This document shows, piece after piece, positions 18,624 through 57,761 of a DNA stretch of 64,000 nucleotides. The position numbers and the translations under genes are program-made. The notes beneath the pieces were generated by a model. The model did no database searches, was not told the origin of the DNA, and worked only from the letters and a program-made list of their open reading frames with translations. This DNA comes from Chrysomallon squamiferum (Eukaryota > Animalia > Mollusca), in contig CM022676.1 in NCBI GenBank assembly GCA_012295275.1, positions 16,802,001 through 16,866,000 of the forward strand, written 5' to 3'. Positions within the stretch are counted from its first letter, which is position 1, and every line of letters begins with the position of its first letter.

Positions 18624-18878
18624 ATGGAGTCCTTTCTGTTAGATTCATTCCTTCAGCTCCAGGAAACACTGTTGAAGGAGAGACTCTAAATGTGACCTGT
18701 GTTGCTAATTGTGACTCATCTTGTGTCTACACGTGGAAAAGTGAAGATCGGTATTTGGTCAACAGTTCTCAGTTAACTGTTGGTCCTGTGAGCAGAAATC
18801 AGACAGGAGAAACATTTACATGTACAGCAAATAGTTCTGAACGTTCAGGAAGTAACCAGTTCCAGCTTAGAGTTTTTT
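18624..18878 (+). CDS. Ig-like domain exon (Ig1 type) of receptor paralog A; upstream exons not visible
   Basis: ttctag| acceptor, |gtaagt donor, 255 nt, phase 1-1, open frame [84 protein letters not shown] with Ig B-strand Cys, C-strand Trp and F-strand Cys. The exon and upstream intron align with 45475-46304. Confidence 0.88.
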
Positions 18879-19691
18879 GTAAGTTCCATTTTCACAGATA
18901 AAGATACGACTTTAAATATACAAATAATGTGTCAAAAACAGAATAAATAAAAAAGTAATAATAAAAAACTACCAAAAACAACAACATTAAGATAAATATC
19001 GAATCCCCGTTTTTATTTTCATCCCAACAAAATCTGTAAGGTATAGAACTTTTTTTTAAAAATATCTAATTTATTCAGCGATTTCTTCAAAGTTCTCGCT
19101 ATGTTATACTGGTGTTTATCTACATACGAAAGAAAAACTCAACAAAATAATTTAAAAATAAAATGTTATACATTTAGTGAGTAAAGTTTAAAAACATTTA
19201 CAAGTTTTCTCTCGCATACACTTCCAAGCCACAAGTTTCATGTATATTAAGATTTTTTCACTAACAATGATATCTTTTTTTGATCATATTTTAAATTATA
19301 TTGCATTTTTCTTTATTCTGGTTTGAAATTCTAACATTTTTAAATCCAGAACTGCCTACAAAATATGTTTTAGTGACTGCTTTAAAGTGTAATTATGATT
19401 ATTTTTTATTTTGTATTACTTTACTTATTTATTTGTTTATTTATTTTTTAGTATTTATTATAATTATTATTTCTTAAAGCTCATTATTATTATTATTATT
19501 ATTATTATTATTGATTCGTTTAATCGTATTTGTAGAGTGGTAAGCAAAATTCTATCTTAACAGAATAATTAAAAATGAACTGGAGAAACGTGTCTGACTA
19601 GATATTGCTGTAGATGTGCTGACACTGTTTACCTATCGTGTTGTCAGTACTTGTATTAGAAACTTCAGCCTGATTTTATTTTAGCTACATA

Positions 19692-20233
19692 CAGTGGAAC
19701 ATCGGGTTACGAACTTAATCCGTTCCAGAACTCGGTTCTTAAAGAGAATTGTACGTAAACCGAAGCAATGTCAGAGACACGAACGCCACTCTTATGTTTT
19801 GCAATTAATTCCTTCTTATCCTCTACTGTGATATATTTGTAATTTCCATTAGCATTATAGCTTTCACGTTTTGTTTTGTTGGGCATTATAGGGTATGAAA
19901 AGAATAAAAGACATAAAAACAGCAACACTTTAAAAAAAGTGACCGTACAATTTCAGTGCAAAATATATTGAACTGCAACTGCATATCGAACACTAAAGGC
20001 CCTAATTTATGAATCGTATTTGCTGAAGGGCATGGCTATAATCCTTTCTTTGGCTTCGGTTTTGACGTAAGCATCTATTCTTATCTTTACTGGATGTTGA
20101 GGTAAAAAGAAGGCTTGTCGTGGCGGGTCGCTGTGGTTCGTATCTCGTAAACCGAGACAAAATTTGCCCAAGATCATGATTCTTTATCCGAATTATTCGT
20201 GCTTCGAGACGTTCGTAACCCGATGTTCCACTA
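19692..20233 (-). mobile_element. Internally deleted Tigger/pogo (Tc1-mariner superfamily) DNA transposon
   Basis: TA then CAGTGGAACATCGGGTTACGAAC (19692) and inverted GTTCGTAACCCGATGTTCCACT (20211-20232). Minus-strand peptide ITVEDKKELIAKHKSGVRVSDIASVY resembles the N-terminal CENP-B/psq-type HTH of Tigger transposases. Confidence 0.85.
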
Positions 20234-53560: not shown

Positions 53561-55233
53561 GTACGTATATTAATAATGAGGAAAAATGTCAGTTAGTACA
53601 GCTGTGCATCATATCATTTTATTTGCTTTCAGTCTGGAAACAGTTATATGCCTTTTTTTTTACCAGAAACGTTTATGAAATCGCCACTTATTTTGCGTTA
53701 TCTTGTACATTTGAAACAAATGTATATATATATATATATATATATATATATATATATATGTAATGGAGAGATTCCAAGATTAATATTATAGTCGTATTAT
53801 GTTGTTTTTTTGCCAAAACAGGTATACGGTTTTTATTTGAATCTAACCGGAAACTTATTTTTTATTTTATGTTGGCAGCCCTTTACACAGTGTAAAATTA
53901 CTGTTTTTAACAACTTTAAGACTCAAATCATCAAAGTTCGGCTAACCCCACACAGTAATTCCAATCAGTGACTGAATTATTCATGAGATGAAAATACGGG
54001 TGTTATTTTCAATTTTTCCTCATGTTTGGATGTTCTTGCTGTTGTTTTGTGTTTCTTTTTTCTTTTTTTTTTTCTCTAGAACATTCAAATATGTTGCATC
54101 CATGTCTTCCTCCAGAGATCTCAGTTTTATTTTCTTGGAAGAATTAAATGTCTGAGGCTCAGTTGATCCTTTTTCTCAACTGTCCATGTAGCACATTCAC
54201 GTTATTATATTTACTTTGTTTCATGTTTGCATGCTTTGGTTTCATCGTTTAACTGGCCACATAGGACAAAAGTCCTCTTCGGAATGTAGAGTTGAACAAG
54301 TCACTGAGATACACTGACCTCATATCAGTGTATTCATTGGAATCAGTTCTTTGTTCTATCGAATGTTTAATCTCTTCACTGATGTTACATCTTAAGGTGA
54401 CAAATTATAAAGGATTTCGTCTTTATCAAGTTCAGCCAAATCTCGAGATTTTACCATTCTCTTGGTATAATTAAGGGAAGAATTCTCTTTGAATGTTATG
54501 TTCACGTTACACAGAATATTTGCTTTTAGAAAGTATTTGACATGTTTTTAAATCAAGCATTCGGCTCACAAAATACGTTCCTCATTTTATTTTTACCGTC
54601 TTCGGACATCCTGCCTGTCCAACAATTCGCTTCTGGATTGTAAAACTGATAAGGAAGAATACTGGAAGGTGCAGTCATGTAGCTTTGTTTTAATTATTAT
54701 TACATTTTGTTCACGGGTTCTTACTGTTAGACGATAGTGAATCAGAAAGTTCGATGTCGACTTTTTAAGGGTCCGATCAAAAACTGTTTTTTGGTTTGTT
54801 TTGAACCGCTATTTGGTTCTATATAATTCACCAGTCACCAACTCGAACAAGGGACTGTTGCGCGTAACCTCCTGTGAGACATGACAAGGAAACATGTTTG
54901 ATATACTTGTACAAAATACATTGAATCAACCTTTTAACCCCAGCCACCGCACAGAGAACAGAATACATAGGAACTCTGTACAAAAGTGATTGCAGACATT
55001 AGCCATGACGAAATAAGGCGACTGATACAAATGTTCACCCTTGCACCACTTTTATAGCTCCTTTATTTTTGTTCCTTCCTTTTTTCTATCATGTTTTGTC
55101 AGCTTCATTTCTGTGTATTTACTCTGGCATAATACGTACCAATTTAGTTTGTATTTTCTTACAGTGTACACGTCTCGAATTCTAATACTTTTTTATAGTA
55201 TATCTGTATTCAGTTTAACAAGTGTGTTTTCAG

Positions 55234-57761
55234 ATGAGGTATGCAATGAAAATGTGATAGCAGCGGCTGTTGGATCTGGATCAGGGACACTTGTCTTAAC
55301 ACTTCTTGTTATTGGAATTATTTTCATATGTCGTAGACTGAAAAAAGGTTCATACTTTTGTTTCTTTGCTGTGTTATTTGTACTGTGCGAGCGTGCATTT
55401 GAGTGCATTTTCCTCTGTGTGTACATGTGGTTGTGCTTATGTACATATATGTGTGTGTGTGTGTGCGTGAGTGAGAGAGAGAGAGAGAGAGAGAGAGAGA
55501 GAGAGAGAGAGAGAGAGAGAGAGAGAGAGAGAGAGAGAGAGAGAGAGAGAGAGAGAGAGAGAGAGAGAGAGAGAGAGAGAGAGAGAGAGAGAGAGAGACA
55601 GAAATGGGTATCAATAATACAATTTGAAAGAAAAAAGATATATTTTTTGTAAGAACAGAAATTATAATATTTATATGTAATTTCATCATTATGATTTTCA
55701 TCTTATTTATTATTATTATTATTACTATTATTATTATTATTATTATTATTATTATTATTATTATTATTATTATTATTATGATGATTATTATTACCAGATG
55801 ACTTCATCTGTATTATGCTTTTGTGGAATACATTTTTACTTTTAGGAACTTTACTAGCAATAAATTAGAATTCAAATTTTTTTGTATTATTTATATTATT
55901 TTTGCATTATTTGTTTTTAGCTTACACCTGCAATTTTTCACTTAAATCTTGTTTTTCAGGAAATGGAAACGACAAACATGAGTATGAAAAAAGGTAATGT
56001 TAACTGAAAGTACAGGTGAATACAGTTTAAATTGTTTGGTAGCTTTGTTGATGCATATATGTCCTCCTTCATAGCAGTCATTACACAGTTCAGTCCTTAC
56101 ACGAGTATATTTATTATGCAAATGAAAGGTTAAGAGTCTCCTGATAAAACATCCTATCCTGTATCAATGTAGATGACATTCTAACGTCCACAATTCAGAG
56201 GTTCAATGATCGGTGAATCTCTAAATGTAAGCAGTTCTCGATTGGTGTCTGAAATATTTATGTGTGTTAACCTCTGGTTTGTTGGCGATCAAGGGTGAGA
56301 TGACATATCTCTGGTCAAGGGAACACTAGGCCGTCGTGGTCAGTTGTGTTAACGAAATTTTGCTGTGTTTTCAAGGTATGTTAAATGTACTGATTCATTA
56401 ATACATCTGTCTCCGAAGTGAGAAAAAGGCTGACAGATCCAAAATGTGTTACACTAGATTCCGTGATAACCATATTCTGTAATGGTGATCTACTAGTAGA
56501 GAATCTTTATGATATGATGTTTGCCACTTTCAAACTGGAAGTCTGAGCACCGAGTTTCCTTTAAGAGAGAGACCGAAGAGATCCATCACTAGCTAGATCC
56601 TGGTTTTCTATTTAGATAACTCGACTGACTTGTAGCTGAATCCATTATCTATGAACGTCACTGTCAAATTTATCTATTAACTTTTCCTATCTTTCTAGCA
56701 AAGAGTAAGTCTCTTCTTTGTGTGTCTGTGTACGATGTCTGTCTGTATGATATCTATATATGCTCTCTATTTTGTGTATTTTGTGTTATCATCCAACAAT
56801 CCACAATTACATTGTTCGGTAATTTCTTTTTAATTAACTTCAAAGTTTATTTCCTATTATATTATTACTAATATATATCTATATATCTATATAGATATAT
56901 ATAGATATATAGATAGATAGATAGAAAGATAAATCATTTGACTGTTAGTTGTTAGAAGGCTGTACGCGAATTTTATTATTAAAATTAAAAAATGAATTCA
57001 CGTAGACATCTGGTCTGTTTCAAATCACAGAAATGACCCAGAACCGCAGTCTCCAACATACGAAAATCTTCCGTATGAACCGGGTAGGTGCAACATTTTC
57101 TTAATAGCTATTAATTCAGTTTTCAATTCTGAAGGTTCAGTATATATTAAGAATCCTGGCAAGGTAATCAGGAAAAAATGATGGAAGGTACACAAGGAAG
57201 TAAAAAATGATCAAGTAAAGAAGGGGCCTGAAATAGAAGACTTAAAAAATATTATGAAATAGCAATGACATAAAATATTGTCATTTATATATTTATATAT
57301 AAAAACGTCTAAGGTTATTTTGTATTACATGATTAATTAGTAAAACTAATTTGCATTATCTCTTGTGATATGTTAGTATAAAATTTAGCATCTTTCTATG
57401 ATAAATACAGATTGTTGTAAAGTAATATTTTGCAGTGTGATATGTTTTATCAGCGCCATAGATTAGTATTTATCTTTCTAGTTGTAAATAGCAACCTAGT
57501 GATGCTACTCTGTCACTTTTCATATTTTCTCTTTTTAATTCTCTATACATTTGATTACTTATGGTTTATCAATGCAGTTTTGTTTGACTGTTTCTTCTAC
57601 GTTTAACTACCGATGCATGCATGATTATTTATGAAAGGTAACATACATGATTATACATGTCTTATTATTTCTGTGTAGGTAACAACGTAGAACGAAGTGG
57701 GTCATTTGAACAGCATCCGTATGAAGTATTTGGAGTCGATGATAACGGACTAAAATATTAA
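55234..57761 (+). CDS. Tail module 2: TM exon 55234-55347 plus cytoplasmic exons 55960-55993, 57031-57083 and 57679-57761
   Basis: [94 protein letters not shown]. All AG/GT sites are intact, sizes 114/34/53/83 nt match module 1, and there is no premature stop. Confidence 0.8.
55450..55598. repeat. (GT)n(GA)n compound microsatellite after TM exon 2 (counterpart at ~48860-48963 after TM exon 1)
   Basis: Directly visible; the shared position supports duplication of the tail block. Confidence 0.95.

What the first reader, a model, noticed from the sequence alone, without database searches (positions are those of the whole stretch)
18624..57761. Modular SRCR-Ig-FN3 immune-type receptor locus: amplifiable ectodomain cassettes plus two interchangeable signalling tails
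Seen: every domain boundary (SRCR, Ig1, Ig2, FN3, TM) is a phase-1 intron on the same strand, so any domain donor can join any downstream domain acceptor in frame. The locus shows SRCR duplication, a more than 5-fold Ig-Ig-FN3 amplification, a domain deletion and a duplicated TM+tail. Established: group A SRCR domains are pattern-recognition modules, and Ig/FN3 receptors with ITIM-type tails are typical of immune and allorecognition receptor clusters. Inference: this is a fast-evolving receptor family whose ligand-binding head, stalk length and signalling output could vary by unequal crossover and alternative splicing. I do not recognise SRCR(n)-Ig-Ig-FN3-TM-ITIM as a named family.
Basis: partly seen in the sequence, partly recalled or inferred. 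Interest (0 to 1): 0.88.

Follow-up and report, generated by a model that had tools for sequence, protein, structure and literature searches.

The report
Snail SRCR-headed receptor cluster, stretchable stalk
This stretch, likely from a deep-sea vent snail, holds three copies of one cell-surface receptor gene (one open-framed, one with its stalk repeated five times, one decayed) in which scavenger domains predicted to bind microbes sit on an immunoglobulin stalk with a likely signal-damping tail, a design I found elsewhere only in one related snail and in no paper that I searched.

Summary
The domains are real, but the locus is three paralogs, not one gene with swappable tails. Gene B (37065-51030) is an open SRCR4-Ig-Ig-FN3-TM-tail frame of 796 codons with phase-1 domain borders; RNA contigs show family members spliced SRCR-SRCR, Ig-Ig, Ig-FN3 and FN3-TM-tail. 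Gene A (18624-35360) is a recent 2.8-kb Ig-Ig-FN3 array (5 full units) on its own contig, cut off by N gaps and lying upstream of the SRCRs. TM2/tail 2 follows its own decayed I-set and FN3 stubs, so it is most likely the remnant of a third paralog; RNA joined gene B's FN3 type only to TM1-type letters. Gigantopelta aegis has six SRCR-Ig-FN3 gene models, auto-named DMBT1-, DSCAM- or titin-like. One is SRCR3-(Ig-FN3)x5/x6-TM, an independent stalk amplification. Best reading: SRCR heads were shuffled onto a larger Ig-FN3-TM receptor family with tyrosine-motif tails and evolve by birth and death. The likely function is cation-bridged binding of microbes with inhibitory or endocytic output (inferred, untested). 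New variant of a known kind; interest 0.5.

The parts
17849..18048 (.). assembly gap (200 N), left end of the array contig
18624..18878 (+). Gene A first Ig1 exon; it and its flanks (18049-20502) match gene B's SRCR4-Ig1 intron, Ig1 and Ig1-Ig2 intron at 79-85%
20484..20502 (+). Gene A Ig2 stub (19 nt) fused to the intron that follows FN3: deletion of the first Ig2-FN3
20500..36225 (+). Gene A tandem array, about 2.8-kb units. Ig1 exons start at 21109, 23907, 26707, 29511, 32302, 35107; Ig2 at 22362, 25161, 27966, 30755, 33559; FN3 at 22874, 25674, 28479, 31267, 34073. The 15 exons of units 1-5 are open; the sixth Ig1 is frameshifted
36226..36425 (.). assembly gap (200 N) between gene A and gene B
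37065..38174 (+). Gene B SRCR1 (exons 37065-37209, 38005-38174)
39015..39513 (+). Gene B SRCR2 (exons 39015-39159, 39338-39513; GC donor)
39972..40960 (+). Gene B SRCR3 (exons 39972-40116, 40785-40960)
44339..45173 (+). Gene B SRCR4 (exons 44339-44483, 45004-45173), duplicate of SRCR1; a-b joint seen in RNA
46050..46304 (+). Gene B Ig1 exon
47341..47619 (+). Gene B Ig2 exon (68-77% identical to most G. aegis hits)
47800..48099 (+). Gene B FN3 exon (GC donor)
48707..48820 (+). Gene B TM1 exon
49278..51030 (+). Gene B tail 1 (exons 49278-49311, 50469-50521, 50948-51030 with stop); motifs STYTNL and HQYEVL
53216..53425 (+). Gene C decayed I-set Ig remnant (48% identity to P0009 1146-1215; ends lost, stops on both sides)
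53500..53560 (+). Gene C FN3 3-prime stub with donor
55234..55347 (+). Gene C TM2 exon (open; one RNA contig starts at its acceptor)
55960..57761 (+). Gene C tail 2 (exons 55960-55993, 57031-57083, 57679-57761 with stop); motifs PTYENL and HPYEVF

Best explanation
The window holds part of a tandem cluster of type I membrane receptor genes, likely of a peltospirid vent snail, in which group A SRCR heads were likely shuffled onto an Ig-FN3-TM scaffold with a tyrosine-motif tail, and whose proteins likely bind microbial or matrix polyanions and damp or internalise the response. Shown: three paralogous pieces (stalk-amplified A, open B, decayed C), phase-1 domain borders, spliced RNA of family members, and the same design in G. 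aegis gene models. Inferred history: one duplication joined the intron after FN3 to the intron before Ig1, making a symmetric cassette; unequal crossover then multiplied it; deletions removed Ig2-FN3 from the first unit, the I-set from the A/B lineage and most of gene C's ectodomain. Inferred function: cation-bridged binding by the SRCRs, reach set by stalk length, and phosphorylated YxxL motifs recruiting an SH2 phosphatase or the endocytic machinery.
For: Gene B frame is open for 796 codons. RNA joints SRCR4a-4b, Ig1-Ig2, Ig2-FN3 and FN3-TM; FN3-TM1-tail-1 type contig. All 17 of 17 Ig2 hits are G. aegis. Of 55 Ig-FN3-TM proteins picked by rule from the 208 fetched, 6 carry SRCR, all G. aegis (five genes). 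The array's FN3-Ig1 intron is a chimera: its first 174 nt match the intron after the FN3 stub, and nt 380-470 and 626-694 match the SRCR4-Ig1 intron. 22 of 24 informative sites split the units into contiguous blocks. Window and G. aegis repeats form separate clades (window FN3 pair 100/100; P0045 FN3 repeats with P0085 100/97). Yxx[LIV] motifs in those 55 tails: 112 observed against 29.2 in shuffles; strict ITIM 25 against 6.6. SRCR1 keeps acidic or amide residues at all six positions matching SALSA's cation sites 2 and 3, by my spacing-based mapping. An oyster Ig3-FN3-TM-ITIM protein binds microbes and recruits SHIP2 (PMC11841013, abstract).
Against: No functional data on these genes. No SRCR4-to-Ig1 RNA joint was listed, so head-to-stalk splicing rests on the sequence and on the G. 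aegis models. No convincing signal exon lies in 36426-37064 or 40961-44338. RNA comes from 3 runs of 1 study, as contigs, and only 10 of 303 laid contigs were 99% or more alike, so it shows the family rather than this exact locus. Only 17 of 55 family tails have a strict ITIM. SRCR2 and SRCR3 each depart at two or three of the cation-site positions. TM+tail 1 against 2 gives dN/dS 1.0, so no constraint is visible there. In a related snail, SRCR ('DMBT1') copies are most expressed in scale- and shell-secreting tissue (PMC7142155, passages).
Confidence: 0.6

Rival explanations
1. One gene with two alternative 3-prime ends: gene B's FN3 can splice to TM1/tail 1 or to TM2/tail 2, switching the signalling output.
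For: TM2 and tail-2 exons are open, in the right phases, with intact splice sites. One TM2-type RNA contig (3 differences in 84 nt, depth 4.55) begins exactly at the TM2 acceptor. Hydractinia Alr1 uses alternative TM/tail exons (bioRxiv 2022.03.04.482883, section 7). Gene B's FN3 donor is a weak GC.
Against: TM2 has its own decayed I-set and FN3 stub. The gene-B-type FN3 contig continues into TM1-type and tail-1-type letters. No joint to TM2 with TM2 letters was listed, and the 141 nt upstream of the TM2-type contig were not shown. Tail 1 has its own stop, with AATAAA signals about 130 nt later.
Confidence: 0.15
2. The proteins are adhesion or matrix-anchoring receptors of shell- and scale-secreting epithelium rather than immune sensors.
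For: Up to 65 tandem SRCR ('DMBT1') copies are highly expressed in scale-secreting epithelium and mantle of C. squamiferum (PMC7142155, passages). Ig and FN3 proteins occur in its sclerite proteome (PMC11871041, passages). SALSA SRCRs also bind hydroxyapatite and heparin (PMC7043408, passages).
Against: The domain table of those 'DMBT1' copies lists no Ig or FN3 domain. In that supplement's stored (cut) file, the 15 PF00041 rows all belong to one long multi-FN3 protein. Tyrosine-motif tails are enriched in this family.
Confidence: 0.2
3. Gene A's array is an assembly product or a dead pseudogene and makes no long-stalk protein.
For: It fills an 18.2-kb contig between two gaps. Many unit differences are single-base changes in homopolymer runs, including the sixth Ig1 frameshift. 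No FN3-to-Ig1 RNA joint was listed. Substitution density is the same in exons (12 of 834) and introns (30 of 1968).
Against: 24 shared informative substitutions are ordered by position, which read error does not give. There are 0 indel columns in the 834 exon positions of units 1-5. An independent x5/x6 cassette array exists in G. aegis models.
Confidence: 0.2

Closest known systems
G. aegis RefSeq models P0009 ('DMBT1-like'), XP_041372560.1 (P0085), P0194, P0195, XP_041372971.1/XP_041372972.1 ('titin-like'/'DSCAM-like')
   Same: Homologous SRCR(n)-Ig-FN3-TM design; similar TM; tyrosine-motif tails in three of them; tandem stalk cassettes in one.
   Different: The window's stalk is Ig1-Ig2-FN3 (I-set lost), against Ig-FN3 or Ig3-Ig2-Iset-FN3. 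Its amplification arose separately. These are automatic names on predicted models, not a described family.
G. aegis Ig-only 'nephrin/hemicentin/CEACAM-like' receptors and oyster CgNCAM1 (PMC11841013)
   Same: Ig-FN3-TM scaffold with tyrosine-motif tail. For G. aegis this is homology by sequence; for CgNCAM1 it is likeness of architecture only (abstract).
   Different: No SRCR head. CgNCAM1 was not compared by sequence.
DMBT1/SALSA and the C. squamiferum 'DMBT1' tandem expansion (PMC7142155, PMC7736800)
   Same: Tandem SRCRs, copy-number expansion, cation-site residues.
   Different: No CUB or ZP domain here; six-cysteine group A domains; membrane-anchored through Ig-FN3-TM. The published copies list no Ig or FN3.
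Hydractinia Alr allorecognition cluster (bioRxiv 2022.03.04.482883)
   Same: Clustered Ig + FN3-like + TM genes and pseudogenes, ITIM/ITAM tails, exon shuffling.
   Different: No SRCR is mentioned in the parts I read; homology not tested; alternative tails are shown there but not here.
SRCR+Ig membrane proteins of fish and soft coral (P0200, P0203, P0204)
   Same: SRCR plus Ig plus TM.
   Different: No FN3; similarity is confined mostly to the SRCRs.

Membership tests
Group A SRCR domain | Pfam SRCR above the curated cut-off | tested here: met
   8 of 8 half-domain exons score 39.8-53.7 bits against a cut-off of 26.1
Group A SRCR domain | six cysteines (three bridges), not eight | tested here: met
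   C28, 41, 73, 83, 93, 103 in 4 of 4 domains; group definition in PMC7043408 passage
Group A SRCR domain | cation-binding residues of SALSA sites 2 and 3 | tested here: inconclusive
   by spacing, SRCR1 has 6 of 6, SRCR4 5 of 6 (E to Q), SRCR2 4, SRCR3 3; binding itself untested
DMBT1/SALSA | CUB and zona pellucida domains after the SRCRs | tested here: not met
   Pfam on the 17 exons given and on P0009, P0045, P0085 shows Ig and fn3 and no CUB or ZP
C. squamiferum 'DMBT1' tandem cluster | SRCRs fall within the published 65-70 paralogues | not testable with these tools
   sequences not available; their domain table has 0 Ig or FN3 rows
ITIM-bearing inhibitory receptor | cytoplasmic [SIVL]xYxx[ILV] motif | tested here: met
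   tail 1 STYTNL; absent from tail 2
ITIM-bearing inhibitory receptor | phosphorylation and SHP/SHIP recruitment | not testable with these tools
   needs bench work
Dscam-type alternatively spliced receptor | arrays of mutually exclusive, diverged alternative exons (definition recalled) | tested here: not met
   the array is whole three-exon cassettes, nearly identical in protein
Type I membrane receptor | signal peptide | tested here: inconclusive
   no convincing exon in the window; G. aegis homologs have a hydrophobic N-terminus; it may lie in the gap
Type I membrane receptor | single TM followed by basic residues | tested here: met
   TM1 and TM2 followed by RRLK

The most novel reading that the evidence does not exclude
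An undescribed, peltospirid-specific family of SRCR-headed Ig receptors that tunes microbe or endosymbiont recognition on three axes: head number, stalk length (by repeated cassette amplification and cassette skipping, arisen twice independently) and tail type (tyrosine-motif, tyrosine-free or alternative), working like a paired-receptor cluster for symbiont tolerance.
Probability: 0.2. Interest if true: 0.78.

Novelty: new variant of a known kind. Interest (0 to 1): 0.5.

Why it matters
SRCR expansions in vent snails have been filed as 'DMBT1' and read as soluble immune or armour proteins. Here SRCR heads sit on a membrane receptor with a signalling tail, which gives named candidates for how a bacteria-housing snail could sense microbes and hold its response down. 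The same stalk-lengthening arose separately in two lineages, which makes receptor reach a testable trait. The parts are all ordinary domains and such clusters are common in invertebrates, so the surprise is moderate.

Tried and rejected
No whole genome is held for this window, so paralog number and the content of the gaps are unknown. Signal-exon scan: only weak AT-rich candidates. Rfam on the whole window: 0 hits. ESM Atlas on P0009 562-1469 and on P0085: best feature scores 0.87 and 0.85, no listed cluster with SRCR, Ig and fn3 together, structure TM below 0.5; leads only. Search with the P0009 stalk: 1 of 28 hits carries SRCR, and that is P0009 itself. Earlier-findings look-ups: nothing. 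The first tail-motif count (33 tails from a hand-picked list) was biased toward tails with tyrosine motifs and was replaced by the rule-based count. RNA holders had word shares of only 0.03-0.07, so they were used only after laying. Many of the contigs under 90% identity lie on an intronic repeat (about 46440-47050) or on microsatellites, so that count is not a paralog count. A missing RNA joint (SRCR4-Ig1, FN3-Ig1, FN3-TM2) is weak evidence, as contigs drop rare forms and the tables were cut. Exon scans of the flanks and tblastx gave no gene model. A single gene running array-then-SRCR across the gap was rejected: SRCRs are N-terminal in all six G. aegis genes, and the array contig starts with the intron that follows an SRCR. 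No fold or complex was predicted.
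Full report
What is in the sequence. The window is AT-rich eukaryotic DNA with two 200-N gaps, at 17849-18048 and 36226-36425. The finding spans the second gap. Right of it lies gene B: four SRCR domains, each split by a phase-2 intron, then Ig1, Ig2, FN3, TM1 and three tail exons, giving an open frame of 796 codons from 37065 to 51030. 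Pfam confirms SRCR on 8 of 8 half-exons and Ig or fn3 on 7 of 7 stalk exons given; the two TM exons had no hit. All four SRCRs have six cysteines. No convincing signal exon was found right of the gap.

The array (gene A). Between the gaps is an 18.2-kb contig. It begins with DNA 79-85% like gene B's SRCR4-Ig1 intron, Ig1 and Ig1-Ig2 intron, so it is a paralog whose SRCR exons would lie in the left gap. After 19 nt of Ig2 it jumps, with ATC on both sides, into the intron that follows FN3: the first Ig2-FN3 is deleted. Five full Ig1-Ig2-FN3 units of about 2.8 kb and a sixth Ig1 follow, differing by 4-35 substitutions. Of 24 informative sites, 22 split the units into contiguous blocks, with unit 3 a mosaic, which is what unequal crossover leaves and read error does not. 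The FN3-Ig1 intron is a chimera of the intron after FN3 and the intron before Ig1, so one duplication made the cassette. Units 1-5 have no indel in 834 exon positions; the sixth Ig1 lacks one A in a run, which may be read error. Exons and introns carry the same substitution density, so selection among the copies is not visible.

The second tail (gene C). Upstream of TM2 lie a decayed I-set Ig domain (53216-53425, 48% identity to P0009) and a 60-nt FN3 stub. Genes A and B lack that I-set. The stub and the intron after it align over 240 nt to the array and over 147 nt to gene B. TM2 and tail 2 are therefore best read as the 3-prime end of a third paralog whose ectodomain was deleted. Their exons are still open, so use as an alternative end is not excluded.

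RNA. Three RNA runs of one study, kept as contigs, hold parts of the stretch. Laid on 44300-48880, they show joints SRCR4a-4b, Ig1-Ig2, Ig2-FN3 and FN3-TM, and an SRCR-to-SRCR step. Of 303 laid contigs, 10 were 99% or more alike, so they show the family more than this exact locus. Loose ends after Ig2 in X2 and X3 read as the start of the I-set exon of the G. aegis proteins, so forms with and without the I-set are both expressed. Laid on 52400-55460, a 544-nt contig with gene-B-type FN3 letters runs into TM1-type and then tail-1-type letters. A 227-nt contig matches TM2 from its acceptor with 3 differences in 84 nt; its upstream part was not shown. Several other FN3-TM junction types appear. 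No SRCR4-Ig1 or FN3-Ig1 joint was listed, and no FN3-TM2 joint with TM2 letters; these are weak negatives.

Relatives. All 17 proteins found with the Ig2 exon are from the vent snail Gigantopelta aegis, 10 of them on one 53.39-Mb record. I infer that the window comes from a related peltospirid; the species was not determined. Most hits are Ig-Ig-Ig2-Iset-FN3-TM proteins without SRCR. A profile search over 1.84 billion representatives and a follow-up found six SRCR-bearing G. aegis genes, all on a record of that same length: SRCR7-Ig3-Ig2-Iset-FN3-TM (P0009), SRCR4 or 5-Ig-FN3-TM (P0085, P0194, P0195), a partial one without TM (P0196), and SRCR3-(Ig-FN3)x5 or x6-TM as isoforms XP_041372972.1 and XP_041372971.1. 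These are predicted models, and the two isoforms could reflect mapping among near-identical repeats. Trees of FN3 and Ig1 put the window's repeats in one clade and the P0045 repeats in another, so the stalk was amplified twice. Of 208 proteins fetched, 55 fit an Ig-FN3-TM rule; 6 of them carry SRCR, all G. aegis. Only the best 150 of 7676 profile hits were seen, so the design may occur in other animals. Fish and soft-coral hits have SRCR and Ig but no FN3.

How it most likely works. Shown: architecture, splicing of family members, and duplication and deletion history. Inferred: the SRCR head binds polyanionic surfaces through bound cations, as SALSA does (PMC7043408, passages); by spacing, SRCR1 keeps all six residues of sites 2 and 3, SRCR4 five, SRCR2 four and SRCR3 three. 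The stalk sets the reach. Tail 1 has one strict ITIM and one further YxxL; tail 2 has two weaker motifs. Across the 55 tails, Yxx[LIV] occurs 112 times against 29.2 in shuffles, and strict ITIMs 25 against 6.6, though only 17 tails have one. The oyster protein CgNCAM1 (Ig3-FN3-TM-ITIM) binds microbes and recruits SHIP2 (PMC11841013, abstract and outline only), which is the nearest functional model. A matrix or armour role is a fair rival (PMC7142155 and PMC11871041, passages).

What is in print. Nine searches gave no paper describing SRCR(n)-Ig-FN3-TM with a tyrosine-motif tail; most subscription journals are not covered. SRCR combined with Ig or FN3 is reported in general terms for sponges, cnidarians and ctenophores (PMC7308585, PMC5119243, PMC6208332, PMC11797021, PMC10855680; passages; their figures could not be seen). 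C. squamiferum has 65-70 'DMBT1' copies (PMC7142155, PMC7736800; passages). Supplementary Data 2 of PMC7142155 (first of two parts read, whole file searched) lists no Ig or FN3 domain in them. A CEACAM5-like family is listed as expanded in G. aegis (PMC7895826, passages). The PMC11871041 supplement was cut when stored and one file was unreadable, so it may hold more. Hydractinia Alr genes are the closest analogue for a clustered Ig-FN3 family with alternative tails (bioRxiv 2022.03.04.482883; abstract, outline, section 7).

Verdict. The reading holds for a fast-evolving family with amplifiable stalks, but not for interchangeable tails. New variant of a known kind; interest 0.5.

Noticed in passing
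window 418-17824 and 61530-63452: Four or five degenerate repeated units (65-88% alike blocks, some in both orientations), with no match to the fetched proteins and no Rfam hit. Two minus-strand copies after acceptor-like sites read PGIIYEEL (4893-4810) and SGVIYDDL (12450-12373), which are ITIM-shaped; the plus-strand copy I read by eye has stops. Possibly decayed tail exons of another receptor family or a non-autonomous element.
   Followed up: partly
window 3531-3440 and 11519-11428, minus strand: Two 86%-alike blocks with an acceptor-like start that are open to a stop at the same place in two frames; possible last exons of a small gene family.
   Followed up: partly
window 46440-47050 and 19550-20300: An intronic element between Ig1 and Ig2 that draws many diverged RNA contigs at high summed depth; likely a dispersed repeat.
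   Followed up: no
window 39514-39593: SRCR2's donor is GC; read-through gives a short hydrophobic stretch and a stop, which could make a truncated two-SRCR form or be chance in AT-rich DNA.
   Followed up: no
window 51368-51612 and 58560-58822: Both tails are followed by the same degenerate 26-bp tandem repeat, so the duplication included the 3-prime untranslated region.
   Followed up: no
P0045, P0195 against P0085, P0194 (G. aegis): SRCR-Ig-FN3-TM paralogs come with short tyrosine-free tails or long tyrosine-motif tails, as in paired receptors; the short ones may be incomplete models.
   Followed up: partly
window 60121-60414, minus strand: Short ORF that looks by eye like a fragment of a LINE reverse transcriptase; likeness recalled, not tested.
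   Followed up: no
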